DNA of 35,270 nucleotides from Psammoneis japonica. Its lineage: Eukaryota. Below the pieces are notes generated by a model that saw nothing but the letters and a program-made list of their open reading frames with translations, was not told where the DNA came from and made no database searches. The first letter of the stretch is position 1; every line of letters begins with the position of its first letter. Of the stretch, positions 1 to 35,200 are shown in pieces. The position numbers and the translations under genes are program-made. The stretch covers positions 1 to 35,270 of the forward strand of contig QPGO01000385.1 of assembly GCA_008632985.1 (NCBI GenBank), read 5' to 3'.

Positions 1-618
1 GAGCTCAAATTTTGGTTTGCTTTTCTTTGGGGACCAAAAATCGCAAAGGGTCTCAGACTGCGGAAGTCCACGGATCCGGACCATGTCCATGTCAATGCAG
101 CAGAGTTCATTGTCATCATGCTCAAGTTGGCAGCCATTGTCGTTCGCATGGAGAACATGACTCCAGAACAGGCGCATGAGTTCTTCCGGGACGGCATCGC
201 CCCACTGCATCTGGTCGTCAGAAGTTGCTCAGACAACATGGCATCAGTCAACCGGACAAACAAAGCCACTTCGAAGTTGCCACAAGGGCAACGATGCACA
301 TGGGTTTTTTGTGAATTACTGCGTCGTGCGCGTGCCAACCTAAATGGCGATCATGTCTTTGGTGACGAGAATTTTGTCGCACATGACATCTCACGACCTT
401 CTGTTTTTGCCCTGATCTCGAATCGTCACCATTCTGAACAGCTGTTTCAGAAGCATCCCTTTCTGAAGACCTGGGACCATTTCCAGCTGAGTCAAGAGCT
501 CTTGCAGCTCCTCTCCTCACAGCTGTCTACCAAGCACAGAACGGCACCCCAGATCCCAAGCGACTTGGGACAGCTCGTTCCTGCCGAATCCATTTCCTCT
601 GCTTTTGCAAGAGCATGA
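1..618 (+). pseudogene. C-terminal RNase H region of the YR-retrotransposon pol (degenerate)
   Basis: ORF 118-618 contains SDNMASVNRTNKATS and NFVAHDISR, resembling the DN...W..K and N..AD..SR motifs of DIRS/Ngaro RNase H. It overlaps the YR ORF. Confidence 0.65.
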
Positions 619-1694
619 AGTGGGATCTAGAAGATCCGGAAATGACTGTGGTTGGCAAGGACCTGAAACATTGCCAATTGGTGCCAGCTGTGCATGCGTC
701 ACATCCAGCAACCGGGGCCACCCTACACTGTGAAAACATTTCCACAGGTGCCATCAAGGAAAGCATCCACGACATCTCCACGTTCGTGTCTCCATTTGGT
801 TCCAACTGTCGGGACGTCCACAAGGACAACAGTGTGGACACCAAAATGGGATGGATCCTCAGGGGAGCATTTGATGAACTCCAACAGTGCGACAAGGTCC
901 CGGACCGACGCGAGTCGTGTGCATTGCTTGTGCAACAACATGCGACTTCAACAGCAGCAGACATGCGAGAAACCGACCCCGACGCAATCGAGGTGGTCCT
1001 CGCTGACTGGTTTGAGATCAGCCCAATGGCAGGCCTGCACAGCATTGAGTGGGCACAGTCCAATGACCACTCAGACCTGGAGAATCCCAGACTCAACATC
1101 TTCGAGGAGACATGCGCGTTCTGCCTCGATGATGTGCGCATCGAGACCAAGGACAAGCACCGATGCACTGGGGCTGATTGCCTCACCCCCAAGCAAGATG
1201 ACATCGAGAGCATGTTTGTTACGTTTCAAGCTCAGAAGAACCTGCAACATGGCGAGGAGTGCCAGTTCACCTTGAACCTCACGGGCACTCACAACTTGGT
1301 CAAGCCGATGCTTCGCGTGATCCAACGCTTCGTACGGGTCCACGGCAAAGATGACAAAACCTGCCCCCTGGCCCTCCATTTTGATCCCAAGGAGAACAAG
1401 TGCCGCCTTGTGACATCCAAGAAAATTGAAGCCCACATGCGCCGAATTGCAGCAGAGGTGTGCCACCTTGATCAGGCAAAGGATAAAAAGGCTGTCAGCA
1501 AATGGTCAGCACATTCCCTCCGTGTTGGAGCCTGCAACATCCTCCATGAGATGAATTTTAGTGCCGAGCAGATTAAGTGGCTGCTAAGATGGCGATCCGA
1601 CGCCTTTGTGGCGTGCCTCCGTAACTGCTTGGGTCTCTCTCAGGCCCATTGCCGAGCCCTCAATAAGGCAGCACCCATGCCGTTCTTTGACTAA
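615..1694 (+). pseudogene. Tyrosine recombinase of the YR retrotransposon; catalytic Tyr apparently mutated to Cys
   Basis: 359-aa ORF with HSLRVGA (H-x-x-R box) and LRWRSDAFVAC, where the C sits at the catalytic Y position. Confidence 0.85.
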
Positions 1695-1965
1695 TTTGTT
1701 TTCTTGCTGTTTGCACATGTCTGTTCCATTTTCGTCCTCTCTGTGTGACATCGTTCGCACACTGTCGTTTTTCTGTGTCAGACATTCAAAATTGAAATTT
1801 TAAAATTTCATCCTAACTTCAGATTCAAACACCACATTCGAGAGGAACATTTGTCTGTTCCTCATGTCAGAAGATGATCTTTTTTTTTTCTGGTTGGCTC
1901 TGCCTCCGATGACATGGGCGCTGTCGCAATGCTTGCAGCATTCCGTGTCGGCAGCATGGTCTGTG

Positions 1966-6555: not shown

Positions 6556-6559
6556 AGTT

Positions 6560-7496
6560 TGCTTGAGGAGTCACAGAAACAGATTCAACTTCGGATGGAA
6601 TGAAGTTCCAAAACATGAGGGGACGGAGAAGGTCCCAGATTTGGGAGCAACCCCAATGCTTGCCAAGAATGTCAGCAGGGTTGCGGGAGCCTTCGATGAA
6701 GTGGAACTCAATGCAGCCAGAGGCAATCGCTTCACGTGCATGATGGAATGACAGAGCGGTGTGTCACTTGTGTAACTTGGAGTGCGGGATGGTGGCACTG
6801 TCCACAACCAACTTGTTGTCACCGAACATGTGACCAATGTCATGGATCGGGATGCCGAGGTGACGCAGAGTGATGCGCAGGTCGACAATCTGCTCGACAC
6901 AAGTCCTTGCGGCAACAAATTCAGACCCGCAGGTCGCAGTCTCCACGGTGGCTTGCTTCTTAGAGAACCAATCAGCCAGGAATTTGTTGAGGAAGTGGAG
7001 CATTCCCATGACAGAGCGTCCGGTGAGCATGCAATGACACAAGTTTGCATCGACGCAGTGGGTGGTGGTGACAAACTTGCCAAGGGGCGGTGGAGCGTCC
7101 TTCGGGATCATCTCCTCTGCTTCGCCGTACACGGAATGCATCCATTCACAGGCTGGTGCAGGGAGATCCAAACAGTCGGGCTCTTCCGTGCGAACGCGGA
7201 GAGCGCCGTGTCGCATCTTGGAGAGGCACCCACAGATGCGTTTGGCACGATCCAAGTGGCCTTGACGGGGCGCAGCTTGGAAGCTAGAGAGTGACATGAC
7301 GGCCGTGGCAATGTCAATTCGACCAAGAGACACTGCCCATTGGAGGGAACCAACAAGAGACTGGAACTGTTGAATGCCATCGGGCTCCAGCAGTTCGGAA
7401 GCATCCAGTTTGGGGTGGTCACCCTTTTCCAGAGGGGACAGGACGTTGGTGGCAGGTTTCTCCCCAAACAGTTGTGTGCAGCTGTCGATCATGCGC
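6560..7496 (-). pseudogene. Copia 1 pol, RT C-terminus and RNase H (degenerate)
   Basis: Motifs LEKGDHP, SLVGSLQW, GRIDIATAV, CVDANLCH, WFSKKQATVETATCGSEFVAA and MFGDN. Confidence 0.92.
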
Positions 7497-7635
7497 GGCT
7501 CACGCTGCCCATCTTGTTCCTTCTCCTGCGGCTCTCTAGTGCTGTCTAGAGATCTTCTGGTGATGGACTGGAATGGCTTTGCCAGCGGATGTGCAAGCCT
7601 CATTCCCAAAAAACCCAAGCTGGAACAGCAGGGCC
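7497..7635 (-). repeat. Ngaro repeat B2 (139 bp), element 3' end
   Basis: Near-identical to 7855-7993; the copia RT resumes immediately after it. Confidence 0.92.
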
Positions 7636-7654
7636 AGAGGGCAGGAGAGGTGGG

Positions 7655-7851
7655 AGCATTAAAAACTGTCTAGCAGCTTCTTGCTCTTTGTTGCTCTTCG
7701 GAAGAATGAGTGAAACAAGGGAGAGAAAAAGAGCAAAAACCGTCATTTGCTCGCCAAGCTCGCGCAAGCACGTTCAATTTTGAATTCAAATGGTTTGCAT
7801 GACCCAACGGTCAAAAAACGGGTCATTTGCCTCGTTGTGCTGCACAAGGTG
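7655..7851 (-). repeat. Ngaro repeat A2 (197 bp)
   Basis: Near-identical to 13678-13874; nearly abuts B1. Confidence 0.92.
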
Positions 7852-7854
7852 TTT

Positions 7855-7993
7855 GGCTCATGCCGCCCGTCTTGTTCCTTCTCCTGCGGCTCTCTAGTGC
7901 TGTCTAGAGATCTTCCAGTGATGGACTGGAATGGCTTTGCTAGCGGATGCGCAAGCCTCATTCCCAAAAAACCCAAGCTGGAATGGCAGGGCC
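7855..7993 (-). repeat. Ngaro repeat B1 (139 bp)
   Basis: Near-identical to 7497-7635. Confidence 0.92.
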
Positions 7994-8063
7994 TTCCAGT
8001 GCCACCCACAGTGCCATGCACTCTTGGGAGGGTGGGTGGGTTGAGGCTGGAGGGCTGTGGTGA

Positions 8064-9256
8064 TCAGGCGTCTTGAGGATTCTGAGGAACGTCAGCATTG
8101 GGGTGTAGGACGAAGTCGCCACCGGCGAGCATGTGGCAAGCGAAGTTGCGCATGACTGGTTCTGCTTGCAAATGCAGGTGTCGCAACATTTCGTCGGATC
8201 ACCAGCGGCCTAAGAGCCGAATGAGATCGGTGTCAATGCGGGCACAAAGGAGGGCCATTGCCCCAGTGGCACGAAGACACCAAGCGGCAATGTCTCGGGT
8301 GGTGAAGCCGAGATTAGCCGGACCGAGAGCAGTGATGGCATTGCAAAGCATGCCGGTGATGTCGGCCGGGGACACATGACGCCAGGTGTTGTTTTGAAAG
8401 TAAACACCAAGGGGTGTGTCAGGGAGTGCACCATGGGTGCGCAAGTGTTGGACACGGCAGATGAGGGTGTGAACCGGGCACAGGTGAGGGTGACCGGAAA
8501 GACCGAGCCCTAGAACTTCGCCTTGCACTCCATTTTTCTGCGTGGTAAATGTGAGAGCAGCGAAGGTTGCTGTGTCAAGGTGTGCAAGTGGAGCTTGCAT
8601 GGCAACAAGACAAGTGCCAGCGGACGCAAGGGCAGACATCGGCGAGACGAAAGGGGGTGGTGTCGGATGGTGTTGCGGTGTATTCGCCAGGCCGCAACAA
8701 AAAGAAAAAGGCGATTACAATCATGTCAGCAATGTTCTTGTGTGCCCGGGTCATTGCTGAGGGCTGCGGCGGTCATAATCCATTGCAGCACTGCAATTGG
8801 GACAGGTTTTACGCGGTCTGGGGGTGGATCCTGCTTCTTGTAAAACCGGACTTGCCGGGAAAGACGGAAATTCATTGTGCCTTGGGATGTGTGGCGCGGA
8901 TCCGGGGCCCCCATTGCAGCGAACGTTTGGCCAACCGAACGTACGGCATCTTCAGCGGTTCTTCCATGGACGGGATTGCCCATCGGCACGAGGACTCCTG
9001 TGCGGCAGCGGTGCAAGAAGACTTGGAGGAAGACAACGGGGTCATCAACGTCTTCGAGGAGTGGGTCGATGGCCAAAGATGAGCAGAACTCTCGCCATTT
9101 GTCCCAATGGGCATTGGCGGTGGAGGCTCGTGAAGAGGTGACGCCATGCTGGACGGCGTGTTGAGCAGCATTGAGATCACATATGAACTCAGCTCTGGTG
9201 GAGGCGTCCAGAGACGCCAGGAGAGTGTCTGCGGATGGCAAAAATTGAAATGGCAC
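8064..9256 (-). pseudogene. Tyrosine recombinase of the Ngaro element (frameshifted, with an internal stop)
   Basis: ORFs 8726-9256 and 8199-8639 plus the continuation FTTQKNG, LCPV, CLRATGAMALL, LLGRW*SDEMLRHLH. Inferred changes are CGA>TGA and catalytic Y>H. Confidence 0.9.
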
Positions 9257-11366
9257 AGGAATTCACGGTTGGACAAAGACTGCAGGCGGGAGGCATCGTC
9301 AGCGGCAGTGTTGAGGTGTCCAGGCAAGCAGTCATGCAACCCCAAGTGGCGATGGCAGTGTTGATGGTAGGACTGGTGTCGAAGCAACCGGGAGGCGGGT
9401 TTGACGGTGGTGGTGGCACCTTTGCGTTGCCAATGCATGGTGCCTGAATTGTCGGTGCGTGAAAGGTTAGCACATTCACGGATGTCAAAGCAGTCGGCGG
9501 CGCCGCAGGACTGGATGACACTGCCGGCAAGTTCTAGGTCTGTGTCGGTGATGGGACCTCGCGGGTTGGAGAAAGTGGAGAGTTGACTGCTGACACTTTT
9601 GGGGAAAGGCAGTCGCCACACTGCGGGACCCGCATCTCTCCATTGACAGTGTCGGCAATTGCTGAAATGAGAGTGGCTGCTCTGGGTGCTGTGGTGCTTC
9701 TTGGCATAAGGACGCCGCCTGTGCCATGACCTGCAGCATCATGACAACCGGTGAGTGTTGGTCTTGGTGGAACCAATTCTTGAATGCGAACGGGTCAGGT
9801 GTCTAGGGCAGATTCTAGATCCCGAAAGTCATCTAGTGCGCAGTGCGCAGTGGCGGAGATCCGGACGCGTGAGTCCGGTGTGGTGTGTCGGAGATTTTCT
9901 TGGAGTGCTGAGAAGAGACCCCGGGAACCAGGGATGGCAATGCTCAAAGAGCGCAGCTCTCCCAACAGCTTCTGATGATCAGAGACGGCAGCACGTTTGC
10001 GTGTGCGGAGGAAATCCTTGTGCAGCGTTGTACGAAGTCGGGCATGCCGACGGGGCGTGAGCCGGATGGTCATAGCGTGAGCATCTATGAGCCATCCCAG
10101 GACTTCTTTCTGCATGGACCATGTGGCATCACCCTGGCGGAGCTTCTTGACGGAGACGGGCTCCTTGCAGGTGGCTGGGTCGTGTCCATCGAGTGGGCGA
10201 AAGACGTCATCAAGAGCATGCAGCAGCACACGGTGGACGTTGCGCCGGGCTTGTTTGGATCCTTGCGCAGCGCCAAGGAAGTCATCTACATAGATGTCGA
10301 TGCATTGCAAGCGGCGGCGCCGACGCGGTCGAAGGTGTGGGTTGGGCGTGTCAGGAATGGGCACGGCCTGTGAAGCTGCGGCAACTTGTGGTGGTTGGTG
10401 CTTCAGCAGGGGGCCATCTAAGAGCGCTTCCAGCGGATGTGGCGGCGCTTGGACATTGCGCACCAAATCCAAATTGGTGACATCGGCGACAGTTTCCATT
10501 GATGTGCAGAACAATGGTGGGGAGTTGGCCCAGCCCACAGGCAAGCGTGTTGGAATTGCCACTGATGGTGGCTCACCCGGTTGGCTCGGGAACACTGCAC
10601 CAAGTGTAGGAGCCTGTTCTGGTGCAACTTGCATGTGGCAACAACCATCGGCCAGGTCTATCTTCACAAGATAGACAGTGCCTTTTTCAGGATTGGCAAG
10701 GAGGATGCGGCATAGAAAGCGGTCAAAGGCACGTCCGAATTGCACAGCTTCCATTGCAGCGTTGGGTTGTGTGGAAGTGTTCAGCCCATGGTGGGTGTAG
10801 TCCACGATGGGACGGGGACGTCGACCGTGTTGAGGCACAACGCCAATTGGACTTAGGCGAAGACCGGGGGCGTGCCGCACTTCCTTGTAGGGGACAACAA
10901 CCCAAAAACCTTTTTCGACCACATCAGCCATGTCCTGGTGCAAAAACTCGATGTGTTCGTAGGCGGATTTGTGTGGACCCCTGGAGACACTAGCATCTAG
11001 CTCAGCACACGTCCATGGTGCATCGGCGACGGTGATGGGGGCACCTCGGCACTTGCAGGTGCTCAGAAGTCGATGAGCTGGGTGTTGCTTGACTCAATGG
11101 AGTGGACCCCAATCGCCTCTGCCGCTGTGATGACGCAACAAGCAACTGAGGCCTTTGCAACGCAGTGACGCAGTGTCAATTCGCATGTGCTCACCCAATT
11201 TATCATTGAAGATTGTGGCAGCAACATCCTGTCCACGGGCAGTGGGGCGGGTGCGCTGCCTCTTGAAACTCTCCACAGTCGGGGGTTGTGGATGCGACAG
11301 CGACTCGGCCATCGCGGGTGAAGGCTCTCGGCTCCAAGTCCCCGAACTTGGGCCATTGCCGAAGAC
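9150..11366 (-). pseudogene. Ngaro RT and RNase H (degenerate)
   Basis: RT motifs SPIGVVPQ, RPIVDY, KIDLADG, LPVGWANSP and YVDDFLG; RH motifs HDAAGHG, DLELAG, TDNS..MHWQRKG and NTAADDASR. Confidence 0.92.
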
Positions 11367-13677
11367 CCACTCGGTCTTCCAATTCTCCTCACCCCAGGTG
11401 AGAAGGGTGGCCTGTTCATCTTCTGTGTGGTCATTGCGATGATCGTGGGACGAGCCACAGTTGGTGTTGCATTGCCCTTTGTAATGGCAGGGAAAGCAAC
11501 GAGGGCGACCTTGCGCATCTTTGGGGAGGTTGATGTTGTTTCTTGCGCATCGGTTTTTAACATCGCGTGACCTGACGTTGGGGCGGTCACGGAGCGTGGC
11601 AAAGCGGTTGTCGTAAGAAGGATTCCGGACTATGCTGTTGCTTCCTGCAGCTTGGCTGGTGGGGGCCATGTTGTTGGCAGGCTGGCGTTGAGATGCTGGG
11701 GCCGGTGCGGACCCCAGCACAGAACTGGGGTTGGCAGCTTGCATGCTAGCAGGCAAGTGCGGATGCCAGCAAACGATTCCTTTAGCCGCTTCAAACATAA
11801 TGTTGAAGGGTGTGAATGGTGACGGGTGGAGTGAGGCTTCTTGAGCCCTGAACCAATGGCGAACTTCAATCTGCGCACAGCGTTGAAAGTCCGCGGGAAG
11901 GGTTGGGTGCCAAGTGGCCTGTGCTGCCAATTCATTGGCACACCGGTCCATGTCTTGATGTTGACGGGTGAGCCACTGGACGACTGGATGGTTGGCCCCA
12001 AGTGAAGCAGAAAGCACCAGACGGTGTCCATCGTACAACTGTTGGGCGGCTTGCATTGTCGTTGCCACAAGCGCCTTGTCTGGAGCTTCCAGGATTTGAG
12101 TGTCCTGGAGGGACGGGGCCGCCGTGCCACCATGAATGTGCACATGCATGGCCCTGCGGCAGGCAATCTGTTCGGCGCTGTCTGGGGCAGTGATCCCAAA
12201 TTGGAAGGGGGTGATGCCTTGGGTAGGCTCGTCTTGATTGTGACCAGCAAATTCGAGCTGTGCGAGCTTGGTGACGAGACTGACGGTGACAGGTGCATCG
12301 AAATGGATGGCCATTGCCTGGCGTTGCTCATCAATTGCATTTTGGACAACTGCCAGGCGGCCTGTCTTTGGCGCTGCGGCAAGTGCGGCCCACACAGGTG
12401 GCAGTGCCGTCTCGTTGAGGACGTGGCACCAATTCACAAGCTTGGTGACACCGAAAGGTCCCCAAAATTCATTGGGTGCCTTGCCCCGGGCAGCCGCTTG
12501 CTGACGTGCTGTAGCATCAAGTCGAAGTTGGCGTTGCTCAGTGGTGAGCCCTTCAACAGCTTGCATGACCGGCTGGAAGTGCTGCGCAGTGGGTGACGCA
12601 TGGCCCAGTCTCCCAGGGATGTCACGCGACACCTTGGCATCAAAGAATTGAATGAGGGCTTCATTGGGGGGGCGTGTCATGACAGGCCAGGGTCGTGTCA
12701 CAACAGACACCATTTGGTTGTTGGCAATGGCACAGCAGGCAACGCGAAGTAAATCGAGCAGTGGTCGAATGGCAGCCACTTTGTCAGCTGCTGTGGCAGC
12801 GCCGTGCACCCGCTGATGGGCTTGTTTTGGGCGCAAGGGATGTGCCAACAAGAGAGGCACAAACTCAAATGGCACATGCATTGCGTTCCCAGTTCGCACG
12901 ACCTCCGAGTGTTGTGCATTCTCAGCCAGACACGGATGCAGGCCGTCCGCATTGTCAGTGATGTGCTCCAACAGGGCAGCATGAGTCGGCACCCTAGTCC
13001 CCTGCTGTGCTAGATTGAACGAGTCATCTCCAAATTCGACCAGAGTGAACTGTCCACGAGTTAGATCACCCACCATTGCACAAGTCTCACCGTCCCAAGG
13101 TTCAGCGGGCCCAACCACGGTCGTCAGATAAGTGGCAACGCGGTGGAGGACTTGAATCTGTCCTTCGTCCACTGCACCAGCCTCCCGACAGTGCATGATG
13201 ACTGCCATCGGCTGATCATGACTTGACGCAGCTGCAACTCGCCCATGTGGTGTTCCAGGGTTGCATCTGGAAGGTCCCTGAACCGGGACCGCAAAATCCA
13301 ACATCGAATCGTCGCATGCTCCCCGATGTGGGTCGTTGGTGGTGGCAAGGCAGAAATCACGACAAGTCGAAATGACCGGCGGCGCCGCCGGCACGGCTTG
13401 GGCACCCGGTGGTGGTGGCTGCATGAAGGCTCCTGCTGCTTGCGGTGCCAACGGAGGCACTGGAACTTGAGGCGGAGGCGGTGGCGGAGCGTTTGGGACC
13501 GCTGCGGCGGCTGCTGCCGCTCCTCCTTGCGGTGGAGCCAGATCGTTGGTATTTGGGGCGTTTTGGGCCCCTTGACCTGCATTTTGCTGCTGTTGCGCGT
13601 CCACAATGGACTCAACAAAGGTTCTTCCTGCAAACAATGGGGAGCCATGGCGGAGGCATCCTGCGCCGCCTCTAGAC
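11367..13677 (-). pseudogene. Ngaro ORF1 (gag-like) with Pro/Ala/Gln-rich N-terminus and a C-terminal Cys/His finger
   Basis: Long ORF (part of 11094-13790) ending with CFPCHYKGQCNTNCGSSHDH, positioned upstream of RT. The start codon is uncertain. Confidence 0.75.
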
Positions 13678-13874: not shown

Positions 13875-13876
13875 GG

Positions 13877-21337: not shown

Positions 21338-21357
21338 GTGTGTGTGGACTTCCAACA

Positions 21358-22821
21358 ATGACTGCAGCCAGCGCGTCCGCTCCGACAACCCCACCTGCTC
21401 GCAACAGACGAAACAACGCAGCCGCACGCACCGTGCGATTCGCCACCGCAGCAGCAGCGACAATGACGGCGCCTGCGGTGCCGTCAACGGCGCCTTCGGT
21501 GCCACAGATCTTGGCAGCTAACCAACGTAAGTTGGACAAACTAGCCCCTTGTCGCAAAGCGATTGAGACGCAGCTAACAGGATTCAAGGACATTGTCGAG
21601 TCACTAGCCACTCGTATGATCACTCAGTGCGGGCTTGTAAAGAGCAGAAAGCTGAGTCTATCGGCTTTCCCCGGCACTGATGACAATCCATGCATCCCCA
21701 AATGTTCCAGGCTCAATGTGAACCTCACACATGCGGACCGGCTCAACGATGATGCTGCTGCCCAAGAGCTCGTCCAGGAGATGAAAGACCTGGTTGCATG
21801 CTTCGAAAAGGATGCAGCCAAACTTGTGCACAAGATGGCCTCACGTGAACTTGAGGTTGTGAAAACAAACCGAGTACGAGAATTGGTCGAAGCTAGCCTT
21901 GTTCTCTTCCAATTCTACATTGACCATGTAAAAGAGTTCAAAGGCTCTACAGACCCAACAACGCGTCAACTCAGTGGAGTGCTGCTCATGCCCTGCTTGT
22001 GCGACGTGCTGCCATCGAGCTTCCTGAGAGACCACCTTGAGACTTCTCCCAAAGAAATCATCAAGGAAGTTGAACGCCAGCTTCAACATGAAGGACCCTT
22101 CAGTCCCGAAGACAGCACCCCTCCCTCAACTCAAGAGAGCACCGAAGACAGCACCCCTCCCTCAACTCAAGAGAGCACCGAAGACGTGCACACACAAGAG
22201 GATGCCACGCGCACTCAGGCCGCACTGGTGGCAAACTTGAGCCCCCTGCTCGAAAGTGAATGCGTGAACCACGAACTTTCAACAGGTGAGAAAGTCACAA
22301 AAGAAGAAGTGTTCAAGGAAATGAAGCAGTTCTATGAACAAGTCACCATGCAATTGCAACACGCCCTGGACAAAGAAGAACGATTGAAATCGGTCAACGC
22401 CAAGCTAGAGGCAAAGTGGAAACGCTGCAAGAAGGAACAAGCAGCTGACCTCGTCGCAACAGCTCTTGAAAACGAACCGACAGTTCAATCCCCCGCCCTC
22501 GACGAGTCAATCAACAAAAAGATTGACAAAAAAGTCGCAAGCCTCAAAAAGCTCCACAAGAAGGCAAACCGTCGGCAAAAAAACGACAAGGGCGGTCGGG
22601 AAGCCCCACCGGCACGAAAGAACGACGTAGCAAAAGACAACGAAACGCAAAAAGGAAAAGGAAAGCGGAAACGCCAACCCCAAGCCTCGAAGACGAATGG
22701 GAAACCATCCGCCAAGAGACAAAAGAACAAAGCCAAGAACCGCCACGGAAAAAGAAAAGGGAATCACGGAGGACAGCACAGAGGCGAGCAAAGAGGCAAG
22801 AGAAGCAACAGGCGAAACTAG
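21358..22821 (+). CDS. PLE ORF1: coiled-coil protein with a Lys/Arg-rich C-terminus
   Basis: Open frame 21184-22821; the first ATG after the pLTR is at 21358; helical charged segments and a basic tail. Confidence 0.7.
   Translation: MTAASASAPTTPPARNRRNNAAARTVRFATAAAATMTAPAVPSTAPSVPQILAANQRKLDKLAPCRKAIETQLTGFKDIVESLATRMITQCGLVKSRKLSLSAFPGTDDNPCIPKCSRLNVNLTHADRLNDDAAAQELVQEMKDLVACFEKDAAKLVHKMASRELEVVKTNRVRELVEASLVLFQFYIDHVKEFKGSTDPTTRQLSGVLLMPCLCDVLPSSFLRDHLETSPKEIIKEVERQLQHEGPFSPEDSTPPSTQESTEDSTPPSTQESTEDVHTQEDATRTQAALVANLSPLLESECVNHELSTGEKVTKEEVFKEMKQFYEQVTMQLQHALDKEERLKSVNAKLEAKWKRCKKEQAADLVATALENEPTVQSPALDESINKKIDKKVASLKKLHKKANRRQKNDKGGREAPPARKNDVAKDNETQKGKGKRKRQPQASKTNGKPSAKRQKNKAKNRHGKRKGNHGGQHRGEQRGKRSNRRN
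22106..22185 (+). repeat. 36-bp in-frame tandem repeat (2 copies plus a partial copy)
   Basis: CCGAAGACAGCACCCCTCCCTCAACTCAAGAGAGCA x2, encoding EDSTPPSTQEST. Confidence 0.9.
22578..22613 (+). promoter_or_regulatory. Putative -1 programmed ribosomal frameshift signal (ORF1 to RT)
   Basis: A-AAA-AAC in the ORF1 frame at 22578-22584, then a short spacer and a GC-rich hairpin (CGGT-c-GGG...CCC-c-ACCG). The -1 frame is open from 22527 into the RT. Confidence 0.65.
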
Positions 22822-24840
22822 AGGCGAAACTCCTCTACCAACGCACCGAGCTCCCCATCAAAATTGCCGAGAAACAATCGGACCGCTACTGCGTCAGAAT
22901 CCATGGATTCACACCAAATCCTGACGCCCCCCTGTGGGAAAACGTAGCAACGGCTATCGGCAAGATGAAAGCTACGGCACACTTCAACCGCCTGGACAAC
23001 ATGTCTTGCCATAACCTCTGTACAAAGCTGCAACCACCCCCGGGTACTGGATTACTGTTAGGACTTGGACACAAGTTTTGTATAGAATCAAGCACCCCGT
23101 TCCCACACAACCGCCGAGGCGTACAACGCTTCCGACGAACCATACGTCTACGGAACTTTATCGAGAACTCCGAACTCGTAAACGACGAAGACGGATACAA
23201 CCCACACCTATACGTCCCCTCTGATTTCGACCCTCCACCGATTGAAGACGGGACAATAGAACTTCGAATGATGGACTTTGCAAACAAGATAGACAGAGCC
23301 AGTCGAACAGCCAACCGCCAACGACCCCGCTTTAATTTGACGCCTCAGCAGCATCGAACCCTGTGAACATTGCAAAACGACAGACGATTCGTCGTGTGTC
23401 TTACGGACAAGAATCTTGGTCCAGCCATCATGGAGCGCGAAGTNNNNNNNNNNNNNNNNNNNNNNNNNNNNNNNNNNNNNNNNNNNNNNNNNNNNNNNNN
23501 NNNNNNNNNNNNNNNNNNNNNNNNNNNNNNNNNNNNNNNNNNNNNNNNNNNNNNNNNNNNNNNNNNNNNNNNNNNNNNNNNNNNNNNNNNNNNNNNNNNN
23601 NNNNNNNNNNNNNNNNNNNNNNNNNNNNNNNNNNNNNNNNNNNNNNNNNNNNNNNNNNNNNNNNNNNNNNNNNNNNNNNNNNNNNNNNNNNNNNNNNNNN
23701 NNNNNNNNNNNNNNNNNNNNNNNNNNNNNNNNNNNNNNNNNNNNNNNNNNNNNNNNNNNNNNNNNNNATCGCGAACGTACATCCGAGACTCTCACCAAGT
23801 CCTCGCCGACTTACGATCACTTGGAAAGCTGCCACCAGATGCTAAGCCATTCACAGTCGATGCAGTAGGAATGTATGCCAATGTCAACACCAACCATGCT
23901 CTGGAAACATTCCACCGGTGGTTCCTTGAGTACCCCGATGAGATGCCAAAAAACTTCCCAGTTGACTTCTTCCTCACCGCACTGGAAATCGTCATGACAA
24001 GAAATGTCATCCAGTTTGACGATACCTGCTGGCTCCAAATCGATGGTACAGCCATGGGAACCAGCACAGCCTGTATGTACGCCACCATGTACAAGGGCTC
24101 TCCACGAACGCCAAAGTACACTAACCCGATTCAACTTGAACCTGCCCTATTGTGGACGATTCATAGATGACGTACTCGGCGTATGGACAGGCGGTGAAGG
24201 TGAAACATGGGAGAAGTTCAAACATGAACTGAACAACTTCGGCACCTTGGAATGGGGGAAACCTCCGAGCTCAGTGACCAAGTTGTATTTCTGGATCTCG
24301 ACATCAAGATTGGAGCAAACCGGTGTGTTAAAACAAGAACGTACCAGAAGGCCATGAACCTGCACCTCCACATGCCCCCAAGCTCAGCACATCCACCTGG
24401 AGCACTGAGAAGCATTGTGCATGGAAACCTTTGGACGTATCGGGCACAAAATCCAAACAACAAGGATTGCCAAAAAACAGTGGCCCAGTTCTTCAACCGG
24501 CTGATAGCGCGAGGGCCACAACAGAGAGCACCTCAAGAACCTCTTTGTGGATGCAGCCGCCACTGTCCACCGGAAAAAGGCCCCACGCTCCAACATCGCT
24601 GACCCATCCAACACTCTTTTCTTTCACCAAGAGTGTCACCCACGCGGGATGGCTCGCACTGAAATAAGAAGAGCGTGTGAAAAAACCTGCGAAGGGCACA
24701 GCGGGTTCAACCGGTTAGCAGTGGCGCACTCAAGACCCAAAAATCTAAGAGACGCCCTCACACGAACACCACTAAAGGAACCCAACGGGCAGCGTGCTTC
24801 AGATGTTGTTAAAAAACTCTCTGATGCACCGGAGCTCTGA
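22584..24840 (+). pseudogene. PLE reverse transcriptase (one stop, several frameshifts, spans the assembly gap)
   Basis: Motifs TDKNLGP, DAVGMYANV, GTAMGT, RFIDDVLGVW, VFLDL, YQKAMNLHLHMPPSSAHP and SRPKNLRD; it ends without an endonuclease domain. Confidence 0.9.
23444..23767. other. Assembly gap
   Basis: Run of N. Confidence 1.
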
Positions 24841-24914
24841 TTCGGCGACTCCGTCGCGACGAGTCACCTCCGGTAAAAAACTCAAACGGGCTGCCTGCCG
24901 CGCCACGGCGCTAT

Positions 24915-25364
24915 GGCTTACGCCCGTTTTGAGTTTTTTTGTTTTGTGTTTTGAGTTTATTCACTTGCGTACTTGCCACAGTAGAGCATGCTTCTATGTC
25001 TGACAGCAGCAACATCAACTCGCTCTTTCTCCAACACCGTTGGAGTTTTTTGAGTTGATGATGCCTCACTCATTCTCATGCGCGCTTCACGCGCATTCGA
25101 GATCTATGATCCACACGATTAACTCACCATGCGCACCGCGCACGGGTGGATCTTTCTGATGCGGCTTTTTCAACGCCTGTAACGTCAGCTGCGACGACAG
25201 CCGTAGAAAAATGCCGATTTCGAATTTTTTAGCTCGAAAAACAGCCGACAACACTGATGAAGCGAAAGCGAAAGCTCACATCATCGAGCTTTGTATGTCA
25301 GGCAACTCTCAACAGATTGCTGTTGCGCCAAAGGCTGTCAGTACATTAGACAACCCCGAAAACA
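24915..25364 (+). repeat. PLE 3' pseudo-LTR (450 bp)
   Basis: Colinear with 20888-21337. Confidence 0.9.
25244..25303 (+). ncRNA. Type I hammerhead ribozyme in the 3' pLTR
   Basis: Stem I GCC-GACA-ACA / TGT-a-TGTC-a-GGC; core CTGATGA; short stem II GC-GAAA-GC; GAAA; stem III GCTC/GAGC; cleavage triplet CUU. Confidence 0.8.
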
Positions 25365-26781
25365 ATGAACAAACTCGGGAAAAACACCTTTGCCCCAACG
25401 CAGGCTGCAATCACCGCTGCTTGCTCTCACAGTCATCCTCGTGGACCCAGCAGAACTGCAGAGCACCAGCAGTCCGGGGCAGATCAGGCACAATGGACTT
25501 GGTGTGCTTGTAGAGTGGCAGCAAAGCCGCAGTCCAAAGAGTGGGTTCAAGCTCTTGGCCGTGAAGACACATGTGTGTGTGTCTTCAGTGACAAAGATCT
25601 TTGAACATGTGGGGTTCTTGACCGTTGACCGTTGAATGGGCATGTCAAGGGATGAGGATCAAGGACAGACTTGGATGCAACCATTGAATGCATGTCTTCA
25701 GCGACAAAAGGCAGCGCAATCAATCCAGACATCCAGCGGCAAGAGGAGACTTGACAGTGACATTAAATTCCTGCCGATGCCTGGTGTTGAATGCACGCAG
25801 ACTTGCCAATGTACAAGTGGAGTGTGTGCGGAGGTCCACGCAGAATTGAAACAGCATTGTCGGTAAATCAACGACGATGATGGCGGTTGCTCAATGGGTT
25901 GACAATGAGCAAGACTGTCAATCCAACAGAAATTGAAGGCAAATGGCAAGAATTCAAACAATGACTCCTTGCTGCTGTCCAAATGGCAGATGAGTCTCCG
26001 CTCAGAGACCATCACAGGAGCCGAAAGACGTGTGAGTCGGTGCAATCGGGCCACTGTCATTGTTCTTGTGAGCCGTGTGGCTCGAAAGCAAACTGCGTCG
26101 CGTGCACACGCGTGGAACTAAAGAGCACACAAAACTGTGCGCGGCAAACTAAATTGGCGCGCGACATTTCGCGCGCACCTAAATCCTGTTCAAATCCTGT
26201 CAGGAAATGCCAAAAAAGTCCGGAATTTCGTGATTTTTTGACAGGCTGGTCCTGATTCTACTACGGTGTGAAGGATTCTGTGCAGTTTCTGGATGTTCCT
26301 GCCTTTTTTGGCAGTTCTGCTGGGACCTGGAACTCCTTCCACCAGTGCGTGAATTTGGTTTTCCGGAGCCCCATTCTTTTGAGGGGCAGCACAGCACGCT
26401 GTCACATGGCACATGCGTGCACTTGCGACATGTCGCCAATGTGAACAATGGTTGGATGCACTGCATGGGCAGTTGCCCTTTTGTGCACATGTGACAGGTT
26501 GTGAGCAGCCATTCCCTTGCCTCTGTGGTGCAGCCCAGAGCCAAGTTGTGTGCAGATTTTGGCCACAGAAGGAGGAGAGGCGGTGGTGCTGGGTGGGCGG
26601 GCACATGATTTGTGGAAAAAGGTGATGGAATGATGTGGGCAAGGAGGGGGGCAGCAGAGCAAACACAGCTTGTTCTGCTGTTGAAAAAACAAAAGATTTG
26701 CATTGTCAGACAGCTCCATGGTTGGCATGAATTGCAAGTTTTGTGGAAGGAAGTTTGAGTGTTGCGCAAGTTGCACTGTGT
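25364..26781 (+). repeat. 1.42-kb direct duplication, right copy (includes an extra copia LTR at 25924-26202)
   Basis: Near-identical to 19361-20780; starts at the right boundary of the Penelope-like element. Confidence 0.93.
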
Positions 26782-26823
26782 CAAAAGGTGAAGTCAAGTC
26801 ACAAAGATGATTCTTGTGCTGAA

Positions 26824-30198: not shown

Positions 30199-31993
30199 AA
30201 GTGGCTCAGGCGCATCTTGCGGAAGCAGCTCTTCCACCTCCCCATGCACAGATTGGGCCCAGTCACACACCGGCTTGGGAAGGTCCGAATGGCTGGGATC
30301 CTCGGTGTGCACTTGGAGGGCACCATGACACATCTTGGAGAGCAATCTGCAGATGCATTTGGCATGGTCTGGGTGACCTTGACGGGTCACTGCATGGGAG
30401 CCAGACAGGGACATGACAGCCGTGGCAATGTCAATGCAACCAAAGGATGCAGCCCATTTTGCAGGGAGCCAATCAAGGACTGGAATTGGTGGATGCCATC
30501 CGGTCTGAGCAATTCAGAGGTGTTGAGCTCAGGGTGGTCTCCCTTGTTAAGGGGTGAAAGCACATCAGTGCGGGGCTTCTCCCCAAAGAGGCACGCGCAG
30601 TTGTCAACCATGCGCTCAATGCACTTGCGAGGAGCAAGGCACAGGGTGCCATCTGGATCACCGGTGAAGTCGCAACCAAGATGGAACTTTAATGGTCCAG
30701 TGCCCTTGAGCTTGAACTTGCATTTCTCCATGAGAGTGTCTGCGCAAGACTGGGGGTCCTTCATGGCAAAGGCCAGGTCATCCACATGCACTGCCGCACA
30801 TTTGCAGTGGTCGCCATTCCCACGCAGCCAGATGTCAGGTTTGGCTTTGAACAGGAAGAAACCTTCGGCACGCAAGCAATTGGCAAAGCATTCATGCCAC
30901 CTGAGGCCAGAGCTGTGGAGTCCATGCAAGGCCTTGTGGATGACAAGGATGTGTCCTTCCAGCCAGCCAAATTCGGGGCCTGCTGCAATGTGCAGAGTCT
31001 CCTTGGTTGCAGCTTTGAGACAGTCATTCCCAATGTCAGTGGTGCAAGTCTCCAGTTCATTGAGTTTGGCTGGGAAGATCATCATTCGCAGGCTGCAGAG
31101 AGACACTGCTCTGGAACAGACACTGTCGATGGGTGCATCTGTGAGGAGGTGTCCATTGGCAACAAGTCCTGCTTTGTGCCATCCATCGTGTTTGACATTG
31201 TAGATGAGATGCACCCCAATCTTCTTGTGTCCTGATGGTGGAGCGCTGGAGTCCTTGCAATGTCCACAGTGGTGGAAGACCTCACACTCATCAAGCTGAG
31301 TCATCTCAATGTCCGTTGCGTCTCCCCACTTGCGGTTGCTGTTGCACTCATCAAGGGTGGCCAAGGCATGCTTGCAGTCACAGGGCACTTCATGCCCGCA
31401 CTTGCATCTTGGCGCAGTGCAAAAGGAGCACAACTTGGCTTTGTTGGCCATGCAGAACAGCTTCTTCTGGTGCAGAGCTGTGGTCTGGGAGCATTTCCAG
31501 CCATCTGTCTTGAGAAAAACCATGTTTGCATGCATGGATGGTGCAGATGATGGGATTGTCCTTGGCAATGATGGCAAGGGGTTCAGACATGATCTCCCCA
31601 TTCTCCCATTCAAGCATGATGTTGCAGCTTGAGCCTTTCCAAGAGGGACCATGGGGTTACAATGGTTCTTCATGCAAGATGATGCGTTGGAACTTCCAGA
31701 GGGTAGAATCCTCATCTTCTTGCTTGATGTGGTGCATGATGTCATTGCAGGTGAGGACTTCCTTGCATTCGTCATTGTTGACAGAGCAAATGAACTTGAC
31801 CAGTTCCGGGTTGTCTCCAATTTTCCAGTCATGGTCTTCAATGGCTTTGACAATGCAGGCTCTGTGGCATTGTCGGTCCTCTTGTGGCTTCATGAGGAAG
31901 GTGCATCTGATGATGTCCTTGGGGTCAAAGACCAGCATTTTGGGCATCCTGATTGCCTCCCCATCTGGTGAATCTGGTGAATCCTTGGAGTCG

Positions 31994-32228
31994 TGTCACC
32001 AAAGATGCATCAAAGTAGCTTGTGTCAGAAAGAGCAAGAGCTCAAGGTTGCAATGGAATGGCAGAAGTCATTGTCAAAAGTTCTCCATGGAGAAATTATG
32101 AGAGAAAACTGAGGAGAGATCTCAACCATCAGATTTGTGAGAAGAGAAGAGATTTGAATCTCAATGAAACAAGCAACACATGGAAATGTCTGAAATGATG
32201 TTGACAAAATGACTTTGACATTTTGACT
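31994..32228 (-). repeat. Putative 3' LTR of copia element 3
   Basis: Lies between the PPT and the copia 2 breakpoint, with plus-strand ends TGTCA...TGACT. The partner LTR is not in the window. Confidence 0.6.
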
Positions 32229-35200
32229 CTCCCTCTCAACTGCAGAGCTGCCAGCCAGACAGACTCTTCTGACCGGATTCAAACAGAGCTTGGACCAACC
32301 CCTTTGTGAACTGATCTGCAAGCTGAGAGTTGGTTCCTGCAGGCTCAACAACAATCTCGAGTGCTTCAACTTTAGTGCGGAACCAATGACAGGGATTTCC
32401 AATGTGTTTGGCACGTGGAGACATCTTCACCATTTTTGCAAACTTGAGACATGCTTGGTTATCCTTGCAGACAATGGAGGAAGGAATTGCGCCATCTTTC
32501 ACATCAGAAAAGGCTTCAGACTTGGTGGCAGTGGGAGCAGAAACATTCTTGCACCCGAGTGCATGACACTGAATTTTTTTCTAAATTTCTCGGATCGGAA
32601 TCAAATCACGCATGCCAGCCGACAGTGTCAGATGTTCTGCTTCCACAGCAGAGAGAGCAATCTGCATCTGCAGCTTGGAGACCCACAAAACAGGACAGTC
32701 GCAATGCAAAATGATGCATCCTGTGCAAGACTTGACACTCACGGTGTCTTGGAAGTTTTCATCACCATGGAGTCCAGCAAAATTGGCATCCACAAAACAA
32801 TCAACTTGTTGGTTATCTCCAGGGCATAGATGGAGGCCCTTGTCCTTGGCACCTTGAAGACAATGAAGAATGTGCTTCACTGCAACAGCATGAGAGTGTT
32901 TGGGAGCACAGGAGAAGCAAGCGGCTTGATGGGTGGCGCACGTGACATCGGGACGGGAGTTTGCCGACAACTGCATGAGCATCCCAACAACAGATCGGCA
33001 ATCCCATGGTTTGGCAAAATCGGCTCCCTCTGAATCAGCATGGCACAGAGAAGCAGTGCATGGTGTGGGAGAAGGACGACAATCTTCCATTCCAGCGGCC
33101 TTGAGGACCTTGTCGGTCAGACCTGGTTGAGCCAGCAGGAACTCCTTGGGTCCAGTCTTGTGAATCTTGACACCAAGGAAGTCACCAACTTCTCCTTCAT
33201 TACAAAGCTCGAAAATGCGATGTTGTTCTTCCTTTTGAATTCCCAGAGCAGTGGTCTTGCGTTCCAGAAGGTTTCCATTGGCACCGGTGAGGACAGCACA
33301 ATCGATGCACACGACATAAATCACACCATCCTTGAAAAACAGACATGGGTCTACCGCTGACTGAACCCACCCTCATTCAAGCAGTCCTTTGCGGAGCTTT
33401 TTGCAGAAGCATTTCGGGGCTTGTTTCAACCCACAGAGCATCTTGAGTAGCTTGAGAATGATGTCAGCACCTGAAGCAGGGCCAAAGCACTTGGGAGGTT
33501 CAACACAAATGTCTTTCACAACATCAGCTTGTGCAAACGCATTTGTGCAGTCGACTTGACGAGTTGTCCACCCTTCTTGCAATGCAGTGCTCAACAATGG
33601 ACGAACAGTCAACCACTGGACCACTGGAGCACAAGTCTTGAAGCAGTTGACTCCCTCTTGCTGCAAATCACCACGACAACAAAATCAAGCCTTGAATTTC
33701 AGCGGAGCACCGTCGGGTGAGCGTTTCAACTTAAATGCCCACATTGACTTCAACACATTCACAGAGGAATCGCGCTTGACAAATTTCCAAGTTTCATGAT
33801 GAACAAGTGCGGCCACTTTGGTCTTCATGGCCTCAACGCATTGCTTGGCAAACTCACCCGTGAGAGCTTCTCGCACATTTGGCGTGTCATCATTTTTCTT
33901 GGCCTTGGCAGTGTAGACACGAGGGTCTTGAATGCCCAATTGTCCACTGTCATAGCAGGTCTAGATCTCAGCAAGACAAGTGAGCTGGGGATGGTGTCCT
34001 CCAGCATCCAATGGCTCAACTGAGGCTAAATGGACTTCATCGGCAAAACAAGTTGTGGTTCGCCTGCCTTTGTTTGATCTTTGTGAGCGACACACGTTCT
34101 GCTTAGTTGTGGGTGGGACTGGGACATCTGGAGCTGGGACTGAGATGTCCAATGACTCCGTGCCAGGTTGATGTGGCGAGTGCACAGGAGGCATTGAATG
34201 ACCAACTGCTGACTCGCTCGTTGATGGATTGGGGTTTTGCGGTGGCTGCGATGGTGGTTCCTGGGGTGGCACCAATGGCAAGTTGTCAGAATTCAATGGC
34301 ATTGAAGCATTGGGATGTGCAGATGGTGGTGGTTCAATGACCGGAGTGATGGGCTGCAAAGATTTCATTGCGGCAGGCTGCTGATGATGTGCACTCCTGA
34401 CAAAATGCTCACGTTCTTCATGTCACCATTTCTGCTTGAGTTCTGCAGGAGTGAGCCAATCGTCTTGAAGAAACAATTGCATGTTGCTCAAATCCAGTGG
34501 CATCTGAATGACATTTTCCAAACAGAGCTCTTCCCAGTGTTGGTTGAGGGAACCGTGGTAAAGAGATCGTCGAATGCCACATGACACTGAGGAGCAATGG
34601 ACCCGGCATTCAGGTTCAGGACCAGCAGAACCTCACTGGCGTGAACCAAACTGAGACCAAGAAAAACACCACACCATGATCTTGGTTGCCAACGCGGCAA
34701 TTTCTGACCTTGCTGCAACTTGGGATCCAGGATGTAGACAGGACAGCCCCAAGCATGCAAATCAAGCAAACGGTGGCATGGGATGGTGGATCCAGTAAAA
34801 ATGTCGGCAGGACAAAGCCCATTTGATCCCGGAGTGTTGTTGTAGATGTGGGTGGCACAGTTGACTGCCACAGGCCATGGGGAGCTGTCGATGCCACCGC
34901 GCCAATGGATGGAGGCATGGAGGATCATGGCTTGTGCCACATTTGATGTGGAACACATGGGCCACTCAGCAATGCTGTTCTGGTGATGGGCGTTTGTTCC
35001 ACAATGGTGGACACATTGCTGAGATTCACGGATGTGGGCAAAAAACTTGTTTGCCTTGAAAGCACCATTGTCTGTGAGGTGCTCCTGCATGATGACGCCA
35101 TGACTGAGAGCCATCTGCTCACAACCTTGTTTTGCCTGTGTCATCTCAACTGCAGAGAAACCAACTTGATGCTCAACGTGCATGAACCCAGAAGCATGAT

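What the first reader, a model, noticed from the sequence alone, without database searches (positions are those of the whole stretch)
600..34000. Surviving TpA sites appear concentrated in CTAG/TTAA/CTAA contexts
Seen by eye, not counted: residual TA in heavily decayed parts often sits in TCTAG (near 626, 3261, 5891, 7545, 7669, 9802, 9814, 9832, 13671, 18006, 33960), TTAA or CTAAA, while TAC/TAT and GTA/ATA are largely gone. Inference: the preferred target is TAY (RTA on the other strand). Established: TadA-family deaminases act on UAC-type contexts, which makes this a usable clue to the enzyme.
Basis: partly seen in the sequence, partly recalled or inferred. Interest (0 to 1): 0.75.

Follow-up and report, generated by a model that had tools for sequence, protein, structure and literature searches.

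The report
Fingerprint of a diatom TA mutator
In the dead transposons of this diatom-like genome most TA steps have been rewritten to TG or CA, and the survivors show that the unknown mutator prefers an A followed by T or C, spares TTTAAA/TCTAGA-like sites and seems to follow the helical wrap of DNA on nucleosomes, but the pattern does not single out a TadA-type enzyme.

Summary
Largely confirmed and refined. The window is all decayed retroelements (TA o/e 0.16). All 11 cited TCTAG sites exist. CTAG/TTAA/CTAA-TTAG hold 112 of 300 TA against 17% in genic DNA; flat survival is rejected (p 2e-19). 'TAC/GTA largely gone' is wrong in raw counts (119 of 300). A tree-based fit on 47 copies of four families gives the motif directly: 3' pyrimidine 2.65x (2.20-3.17), T about equal to C, -2 A 1.6x, -3 T and +2 A about 0.5x; no strand bias, CA barely hit, no same-strand clusters. 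These rates reproduce the window's survival ranking (Spearman 1.0). The TadA inference is weak: bacterial YTACG is not favoured (0.66x), and fungal Tad2/3 prefers UAR. New here: survivors lie half a turn out of phase with AA/TT at about 10.1 bp (z -6.9; absent in genic DNA), pointing to action on, or repair failure in, nucleosomal duplex DNA. Closest: TpA hypermutation in Bigelowiella. The scan noted the process and TAY bias before on other DNA of this genome.

The parts
438..1694 (+). Decayed tyrosine-recombinase-like ORF (0.2% Tyr); cited TCTAG at 626
   Evidence: Pfam Phage_integrase E 0.16, below cut-off; HSLR..G motif seen in translation; family label is inference
6571..7669 (-). Copia RT/RNase H-like remnant with cited TCTAG sites 7545 and 7669
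   Evidence: 70% match to 30199-30458 (D9); no Pfam hit; label inferred from the match
7855..13680 (-). DIRS/YR-type retroelement (family 'YR', 9 copies analysed); cited TCTAG 9802, 9814, 9832, 13671
   Evidence: RVT_1 E 0.019, below cut-off; YVDD motif; copies at 89-93%; CTAG near 9815 is TA in 7 of 7 other copies
13685..18800 (-). Copia element (family 'copiaA', 26 copies analysed); window copy has 4.7 TA/kb, other copies up to 29.4; cited TCTAG 18006
   Evidence: RVT_2 E 1e-17; copies; TA/kb; 5 of 7 conserved Tyr read Cys
19361..20887 (.). First copy of a 1.4-kb duplication, 99.0% identical to 25364-26790; of 14 differences, 12 are TA/TG/CA/CG transitions and 2 are one-base gaps
20888..25367 (+). 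Young Penelope-like element with 453-bp terminal direct repeats (94.7%); least decayed part of the window (family 'PLE', 5 copies: 0.3% apart at cold columns, 8.1% at YR columns)
   Evidence: the Penelope label rests on RT motifs as recalled, no Pfam hit
23444..23767 (.). Run of 324 N (assembly gap or withheld stretch)
25364..26790 (.). Second copy of the 1.4-kb duplication
30199..31889 (-). Older Copia RT remnant; 12 of 14 conserved Tyr read Cys or His, none Tyr
   Evidence: RVT_2 E 4e-17
32230..35270 (-). Second Copia family ('copiaB', 7 copies analysed); cited TCTAG 33960
   Evidence: SH3_retrovirus E 7e-6; copies; this TA reads TG in 6 of 6 other copies

Best explanation
A repeat-targeted mutator converts TpA to TpG or CpA in inserted DNA, one strand at a time, on both strands alike (shown). 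Its rate depends on context. It needs T at -1 almost absolutely, is 2.65x faster with a pyrimidine 3' of the A, 1.6x faster with A at -2, and about half as fast with T at -3 or A at +2; the last two are mirror images and equal in size (shown). Survivors therefore pile up in YYTARR sites such as TTTAAA and TCTAGA (shown). Survivors also sit half a turn out of phase with AA/TT and in phase with GC at about 10.1 bp (shown in survivor counts, weakly in rates). I infer that TA steps with the minor groove against the histones, and the major groove with adenine N6 facing out, are lost faster. Most likely chemistry (inferred): an enzyme deaminates the A to hypoxanthine in duplex, nucleosome-wrapped, silenced DNA, and replication fixes it as G because the lesion is not excised in time. 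The motif is then the product of enzyme preference, DNA shape and repair, and does not by itself name the enzyme family.
For: Direction: conserved Tyr read Cys 15, His 2, Tyr 2, other 2 of 21 columns against 120 homologues. In columns where at least 2 copies read TA, 3210 of 3385 changed cells are TG or CA and only 3 are CG. Context: four-state tree fit on 3550 column pairs (377 with TA) in 47 copies, robust intervals, same pattern in each family. Predicted rates rank the 10 NTAN classes exactly as window survival does (Spearman 1.0, Pearson 0.995) and nearly so in 188 kb of non-redundant TA-poor DNA (0.98). DNA-level and distributive: sense/antisense 0.96 (0.86-1.07); same-strand concordance at null in 22 of 24 bins with |z|<2, exceptions z 2.4 and 2.1 in the 26-site family. 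Strict -1 T: private AA>AG, CA>CG, GA>GG 1.4-1.7 per 1000 against TA>TG 78 per 1000 in the youngest family. Phase: 79 of 107 segments negative, z -6.7; genic TA z +0.9; context-matched genic control z +1.5; present in YTAR and non-YTAR survivors, in CG-poor and CG-rich segments, in six of seven distance bins to 150 bp, and in roughly the segments not used for discovery (z -3.1). A/T-rich at 'In', G/C-rich at 'Out' settings: PMC10498010 (passage). Major-groove deamination higher at minor-in: PMC12887450 (passages). Glycosylase slower on histone-occluded deoxyinosine: PMC13277549 (passages). No AAG/MPG match in G000.
Against: No enzyme identified. The deaminase searches gave what looks like an ordinary set, and the closest TadA is conserved across pennate diatoms. 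Sequence cannot tell A>G from T>C on the other strand. Phase effect in per-site rates is weak: z +1.3 at p=10 and -2.8 at p=11 on the first score; z +2.1 to +2.5 at p=9.8-10.15 on a second score chosen afterwards. It is absent in intermediate-TA windows (z -0.6), a control core gave a small same-sign signal (AT, z -2.8, one seventh of the amplitude), the 89-109 bp bin is blank, and bulk AA/TT shows no 10-bp autocorrelation. No nucleosome map was seen. The fit stopped on a time limit (NLL moved 0.13 on restart), and intervals hold branch parameters fixed. EndoV is present. The AAG blank is one exon-level search.
Confidence: 0.55

Rival explanations
1. Sub-case of the best explanation and the first reader's version: the deaminase is a TadA/ADAT2-3-family protein redirected to DNA, perhaps by a cofactor as with fungal Ame1.
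For: Strict T at -1 matches tRNA A34 deaminases (100% U at -1, PMC11156358 passage). 3' Y matches ABE7.10 YAY. The genome has a TadA-like gene (C38) and an ADAT2-like gene (C26; label partly recalled). Mettrop et al. propose ADAT2 for Bigelowiella.
Against: TAT about equal to TAC, YTACG 0.66x, -2 A rather than Y against bacterial YUACGAA. Fungal Tad2/3 prefers R at +1. ABE7.10 tolerates 5' C. No same-strand clusters of the kind an ssDNA enzyme would leave. The TadA gene has a hydrophobic N-terminal extension, possibly organelle targeting (inference), and is ordinary in diatoms.
Confidence: 0.28
2. An error-prone polymerase or repair synthesis recruited to silenced repeats inserts dG opposite template T when the neighbour is A; the context reflects the polymerase.
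For: Explains transitions at TpA on both strands without a base lesion. Low-fidelity Y-family polymerases misinsert G opposite T (recalled, no call).
Against: AA>AG is at background, unlike the WA motif of Pol eta (recalled). Patch synthesis should give same-strand clusters, not seen. A nucleosome phase is not expected from synthesis on histone-free DNA (inference).
Confidence: 0.13
3. A modified base is written at TpA in repeats (N6-methyl-A through the major groove, or a modified T) and then deaminated or misread.
For: A major-groove writer fits faster loss at minor-in settings. TA and CG loss co-vary across copies (rho 0.58, p 0.002 in copiaA).
Against: No MT-A70 match in G000, but the control rang nowhere, so this is uninformative. 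CG loss shows the opposite phase (z -2.7 to -3.1), so it is not the same writer.
Confidence: 0.15
4. UV thymine-adenine photoproducts left unrepaired in heterochromatin and bypassed as G.
For: TA-PPs are TpA-specific and peak at inward rotational settings with 10.2-bp period (PMC10013872, passages), the phase seen here.
Against: TA-PPs prefer TAW threefold and a 5' pyrimidine and give A>T. Here TAC is fast, TAA slowest, 5' A fastest, and TT/AA are 106 of 3385 changed cells.
Confidence: 0.07
5. RNA editing (ADAR- or TadA-type) of element transcripts before reverse transcription.
For: Two A_deamin-domain genes in the genome; ADAR favours 5' U.
Against: No sense-strand bias (0.96). The two terminal repeats of one element and a DNA duplication differ at TA steps in both directions. 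ADAR slightly favours G at +1, which is slow here.
Confidence: 0.03
6. The context bias is an artefact of ancestral composition, newly formed TA, selection or duplicated survivors.
For: Genic TA is itself non-flat across contexts (chi2 164). Some cited TCTAG sites are duplicates within the window.
Against: The genic bias runs the other way. The bias holds after removing duplicates. 156 of 179 survivors are shared with other copies. Per-site rates show it directly, also in the star-like youngest family. Selection on Tyr codons would slow TAY loss, not speed it (inference).
Confidence: 0.03

Closest known systems
TpA hypermutation of integrated NCLDV and virophage DNA in Bigelowiella natans (Mettrop et al., bioRxiv 10.64898/2026.01.13.699255; read parts 1-3 of 5, abstract to conclusion, plus a term search)
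   Same: TpA>TpG/CpA on both strands, confined to foreign or mobile DNA; TA-poor, CA/TG-rich windows; adenine deaminase proposed, not shown.
   Different: Unrelated lineage. Here about half of the sampled 1-kb windows are TA-poor (83 of 150 with o/e below 0.25) and the targets are retroelements. The main text has no 'context', 'trinucleotide', 'flank' or 'diatom', so no flanking motif or nucleosome phase is given there. Its supplementary tables, which I could not see, list the mutations and may bear on this.
Adenine base editor ABE7.10 (evolved TadA; PMC10188366, passages)
   Same: A>G in DNA; favours YAY, disfavours AAA.
   Different: Accepts 5' C (here CA>CG is 0.7% of TA>TG); works on an R-loop strand (recalled), whereas here there is no same-strand clustering and the outer flanks act symmetrically.
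Bacterial TadA tRNA/mRNA editing (PMC12255301, passages)
   Same: U/T at -1; C at +1 accepted.
   Different: Needs YUACGAA in an RNA stem-loop and loses activity with +1 U; here TAT is as fast as TAC, YTACG is not favoured, and the target is DNA.
Fungal Tad2-Tad3-Ame1 mRNA editing (PMC11156358, passages)
   Same: Strong U at -1; an ADAT redirected to new substrates.
   Different: Favours A or G at +1, the slow contexts here; acts on RNA.
Repeat-induced point mutation (RIP) of ascomycetes (search listings; mechanism recalled)
   Same: Repeat-directed, dinucleotide-specific transitions on both strands that wreck transposon ORFs.
   Different: C>T at CpA, creating TpA; here TpA is destroyed by the opposite transition.
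UV thymine-adenine photoproduct (PMC10013872, passages)
   Same: TpA-specific; elevated at minor-in settings with about 10.2-bp period.
   Different: TAW and 5' Y preference with A>T outcome; here TAY, 5' A and A>G.

Membership tests
Bigelowiella-type TpA hypermutation | A:T>G:C transitions restricted to TpA | tested here: met
   TA>TG 78 per 1000 against 1.4-1.7 for AA, CA, GA; 3210 of 3385 changed cells TG/CA
Bigelowiella-type TpA hypermutation | Both strands (TG and CA products) | tested here: met
   sense/antisense 0.96, 0.86-1.07
Bigelowiella-type TpA hypermutation | Confined to foreign or mobile DNA, host genes spared | tested here: met
   1-kb windows split into 83 TA-poor, 17 intermediate, 50 TA-normal; nine of ten deaminase-gene loci have TA o/e 0.45-0.60; content of the TA-poor random windows was not annotated
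Bigelowiella-type TpA hypermutation | Active now, in a subset of lines, about 1000x background | not testable with these tools
   Needs mutation-accumulation lines; copies differ widely in exposure (0.05-1.18 on terminal branches of copiaA)
Bigelowiella-type TpA hypermutation | Same flanking-base preference and same enzyme | not testable with these tools
   Not given in the preprint's main text; supplements not visible
Bacterial TadA | (Y)UACG(AA) motif; +1 C required | tested here: not met
   +1 T/C 1.07; TACG 0.76x and YTACG 0.66x beyond the additive model; -2 A favoured
Bacterial TadA | RNA substrate (one strand) | tested here: not met
   No strand bias
Bacterial TadA | Target in a hairpin loop | not tested
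   No folding analysis was run
ABE7.10-like DNA deaminase | 3' pyrimidine favoured, AAA disfavoured | tested here: met
   +1 Y/R 2.65; +1 A slowest
ABE7.10-like DNA deaminase | 5' C accepted as well as 5' T | tested here: not met
   CA>CG 0.7% of TA>TG and at the level of AA and GA
ABE7.10-like DNA deaminase | Acts on exposed single strand (same-strand clusters) | tested here: inconclusive
   No excess concordance in 22 of 24 bins; many small rounds could hide clusters
Fungal Tad2/3-Ame1 editing | U at -1 | tested here: met
Fungal Tad2/3-Ame1 editing | A or G at +1 | tested here: not met
   +1 A 0.57, G 0.66 against C 1.57, T 1.69
ADAR editing of retroelement RNA | Sense-strand A>G with slight G preference at +1 | tested here: not met
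Fungal RIP | C>T at CpA raising TpA | tested here: not met
   CA>TA 1-4 per 1000; TA o/e 0.16
UV TA photoproduct mutagenesis | A>T outcome and TAW preference | tested here: not met
UV TA photoproduct mutagenesis | Excess at minor-in settings, about 10.2 bp | tested here: met
   Inferred from AA/TT and GC phase only; no nucleosome map

The most novel reading that the evidence does not exclude
Diatoms carry a natural, repeat-targeted adenine deaminase for double-stranded, nucleosome-bound DNA. It reads T-A-Y, works from the major groove at minor-in positions and leaves no same-strand clusters: an A:T-side counterpart of RIP that is not a TadA/ADAR with a known motif, and it may be shared with Bigelowiella.
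Probability: 0.3. Interest if true: 0.92.

Novelty: new variant of a known kind. Interest (0 to 1): 0.68.

Why it matters
No natural enzyme that writes A-to-G into genomic DNA as a defence has been identified; the one direct report I found names only a candidate. A four-position motif with intervals, strict -1 T, no strand bias and a helical phase gives a concrete signature against which candidate proteins, knock-outs and the Bigelowiella mutation list can be scored, and it already fails the known natural TadA, ADAT and ADAR motifs. If the phase holds, the mutator or the repair gap works on wrapped duplex DNA, which matters for genome defence and for editors that need no single-stranded bubble. 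It also means transposon ages and protein annotations in such genomes are distorted (Tyr to Cys/His).

Tried and rejected
(1) My first reading of survival as a single 3' series T>C>G>A was dropped. Outcomes at ATAC sites were 161 TG to 78 CA, and the fit showed T about equal to C and G about equal to A at +1, with the extra TAT/ATA loss due to -2 A. (2) The singleton count suggested CA>CG activity (45 events); this was an artefact of majority flanks and vanished when flanks had to be identical. (3) tallies are non-independent across related copies and conditioned on a survivor; used only as a lead. (4) Likelihood ratios (109-505 per position) are inflated; robust errors are about twice the model errors. 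(5) Amphipathic-helix periodicity (10.8 bp) as source of the phase: genic and context-matched controls are null and the peak is at 10.0-10.2. (6) Tandem repeats as source: no recurrent 14-mers, 79 of 107 segments contribute. (7) TA-TA spacing shows no clear period. (8) Enzyme hunt: PF00383 10 matches (dCMP-deaminase-like on two contigs, TadA-like, ADAT2-like, a deaminase fused to a 2OG-Fe oxygenase, RibD-like, two others; labels partly from recalled motifs), PF14437 5, PF02137 4 (two genes), PF02245 0, PF04493 2 (one gene), PF05063 0 with a silent control. No expanded or chromatin-fused candidate was seen, but no clear ADAT3 came up either, so the search misses diverged members. (9) None of 120 Copia homologues had under 1.5% Tyr, so they gave no sign of the process elsewhere; intact ORFs are selected for in that set. 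(10) Paper searches for a diatom report and for a rotational imprint of such a mutator found none beyond the Bigelowiella preprint; the library lacks most subscription papers. PMC13674456 and PMC4139847 passages gave nothing used. (11) A further 600 kb of random genome for the phase test could not be obtained, so it rests on 188 kb. Rows left out: copiaA 29 given, 28 passed coverage, 26 kept; copiaB 9, 8, 7; YR 11, 11, 9; PLE 5 of 5. Column pairs with variable flanks were skipped (499 in the three-state run).


Full report
Setting. The window is contig C386 of G000 (91.4 Mb, 597 contigs). Named relatives of one of its genes are pennate diatoms, so I call it diatom-like. The window consists of decayed retroelements: Copia RT hits at 13685-14473 and 30390-31889, a DIRS/YR-type element, a young Penelope-like element and remnants (the last two labels rest on weak hits and recalled motifs). 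TA is at 0.16 of expectation, CG at 0.65, CA and TG at 1.57. In 15 other 10-kb stretches, 83 of 150 1-kb windows had TA o/e below 0.25 and 50 had 0.5 or more; the latter served as the genic baseline.

Observation. All 11 cited TCTAG sites are there. Of 300 TA in 600-34000, 112 are CTAG, TTAA or CTAA/TTAG (37% against 17% in the baseline); flat survival is rejected at p 2e-19, and at p 4e-20 for 196 TA after removing the young element and internal duplicates. Relative survival in the decayed part runs TTAA 0.52, CTAA 0.37, CTAG 0.29, GTAA 0.21, CTAC 0.16, ATAA 0.13, GTAC 0.10, ATAG 0.06, ATAC 0.03, ATAT 0.01, and the order is nearly the same elsewhere in the genome. TAT/ATA are largely gone, but TAC/GTA classes are still 119 of 300. 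Of 179 window TA inside aligned elements, 156 are TA in another copy, so these are survivors and not new sites.

Direction and specificity. Against 120 RT homologues, 21 conserved Tyr columns read Cys 15, His 2, Tyr 2, Met 1, Phe 1 in the two window RTs. In columns where at least two copies read TA, 3210 of 3385 changed cells are TG or CA. In the youngest family, copies differ at 0.3% of cold columns and 8.1% of YR columns. Private TA>TG changes there are 18 of 230 against 4 of 2545 (AA), 4 of 2300 (CA) and 3 of 2195 (GA); CG>TG is 37 of 1880.

Direct context rates. Survival alone cannot say which strand's A is hit, since TA is palindromic; the product (TG or CA) can. I fitted a four-state model (TA, TG, CA, CG) on trees built from non-YR columns of four families: 26, 7, 9 and 5 copies, 3550 column pairs, 377 with TA. 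Relative rate by base 3' of the changed A: A 0.57, C 1.57, G 0.66, T 1.69. At -2: A 1.43, C 1.04, G 0.83, T 0.81. At -3: A 1.45, T 0.60. At +2: A 0.65, C 1.31. With site-robust errors: +1 Y/R 2.65 (2.20-3.17), T/C 1.07 (0.89-1.30), G/A 1.15 (0.91-1.46), -2 A 1.61 (1.31-1.98), -3 T 0.50 (0.41-0.61), +2 A 0.57 (0.47-0.69). The inner effect is strand-specific (2.24x its mirror); the outer pair is symmetric (0.88, 0.71-1.09). Sense/antisense is 0.96, CA>CG is 0.7% of TA>TG, and same-strand concordance is at null in 22 of 24 bins. Each family alone gives the same shape. Caveats: the fit ended on a time limit, intervals hold branch values fixed, and gene conversion between copies is not modelled.

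Is it TadA? Bacterial TadA edits YUACGAA and +1 C>T abolished hokB editing (PMC12255301, passages); here YTACG is 0.66x (0.45-0.97) and TACG 0.76x (0.56-1.03) of the additive expectation. Fungal Tad2/3 favours A or G at +1, and ADAR slightly favours G (PMC11156358, passages). ABE7.10 favours YAY (PMC10188366, passages) but includes 5' C. TadA-family enzymes thus span opposite 3' preferences, so TAY cannot name the family. The genome's deaminases look ordinary: dCMP-deaminase-like, TadA-like, ADAT2-like, a deaminase-2OG-oxygenase fusion, RibD-like, two A_deamin genes. EndoV is present, AAG/MPG gave no match, MT-A70 gave none with a silent control. These exon-level searches miss diverged members.

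A helical phase. AA/TT frequency around survivors oscillated at about 10 bp. In 188 kb of non-redundant TA-poor DNA (802 TA) the signal is anti-phase: amplitude -0.012, z -6.9 at 10.0-10.2 bp, AA and TT each negative, GC/GG/CC/CG positive (z +4.9); genic TA z +0.9. 79 of 107 segments are negative. It holds for YTAR and other survivors, CG-poor and CG-rich segments, six of seven distance bins to 150 bp and roughly the segments not used for discovery (z -3.1); a context-matched genic control is null. The window alone gives z -2.3. Against: per-site rates give z +1.3 at p=10 and -2.8 at p=11 on the first score, and +2.1 to +2.5 on a second score (all four families positive; CG loss opposite, z about -3); intermediate windows are null, a control core gives a small same-sign signal, and bulk AA/TT has no 10-bp autocorrelation. 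A/T-rich DNA takes the inward and G/C-rich DNA the outward setting (PMC10498010, passage), so survivors are inferred to be minor-out and lost TAs minor-in. There the major groove faces solvent and favours deamination (PMC12887450, passages), glycosylases work worse on occluded deoxyinosine (PMC13277549, passages), oxidative mutations peak at inward positions (PMC11666792, passages), and TA photoproducts peak (PMC10013872, passages). The last fail on outcome and context.

Mechanism. Shown: TpA-only transitions, after insertion, on both strands, with a strand-specific 3' Y preference and symmetric outer protection. Probable: a rotational imprint. Inferred: enzymatic deamination of A in wrapped duplex DNA with incomplete repair (0.55, of which a TadA/ADAT-fold enzyme about half). 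Rivals: modified base 0.15, error-prone synthesis 0.13, TA photoproduct 0.07, RNA editing 0.03, artefact 0.03.

Novelty. The process matches the Bigelowiella preprint, whose main text gives no flanking context and does not mention diatoms; its supplements were not visible. Five searches found no diatom report. Earlier notes of this scan describe the process and the TAY bias on other pieces of this genome; two look-ups for a nucleosome phase found nothing. Verdict: real feature, new variant of a barely known kind, enzyme not identified; interest 0.68.

Noticed in passing
L115:1315-1773 (G000:C151): A weak PF00383 match in DNA with TA o/e 0.34 resembles the deaminase part of L110 with His where L110 has Tyr: possibly a gene copy hit by the same process.
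   Followed up: no
L110:313-1785 (G000:C79): CDA-fold deaminase fused to a DIOX_N/2OG-Fe(II) oxygenase domain; weak APOBEC-like and Bd3614 profile scores below cut-off.
   Followed up: partly
L124 (G000:C40) and L125/L126 (G000:C79): Two separate A_deamin (ADAT1/ADAR-domain) genes; no RNA-binding domain seen in the frames read.
   Followed up: partly
G000 whole-genome search: No match to AAG/MPG (PF02245), a glycosylase that removes hypoxanthine from DNA; EndoV present at C147.
   Followed up: partly
L061-L075: CG o/e in TA-poor windows ranges from 0.02 to 0.9, so CG loss is a separate, slower clock; in the families it runs at about 6-24% of the TA exposure and shows the opposite 10-bp phase.
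   Followed up: partly
window 19361-26790: The Penelope-like element sits between two 99% identical 1.4-kb copies and is preceded by an inverted 116-bp piece of its own terminus (20773-20888).
   Followed up: no
window 27600-30150: Decayed ORF pieces with a Cys-rich HxLxC-like motif, possibly a non-LTR element inserted in a Copia remnant; no Pfam support.
   Followed up: no
copiaA copies L128-L152: Copies of similar age differ sevenfold in TA density (4.0-29.4 per kb), and survival concordance falls with distance, suggesting locus-dependent, patchy exposure.
   Followed up: partly
L106/L107 (G000:C41 and C317): Identical dCMP-deaminase-like ORF on two contigs: possible uncollapsed haplotypes in the assembly.
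   Followed up: no
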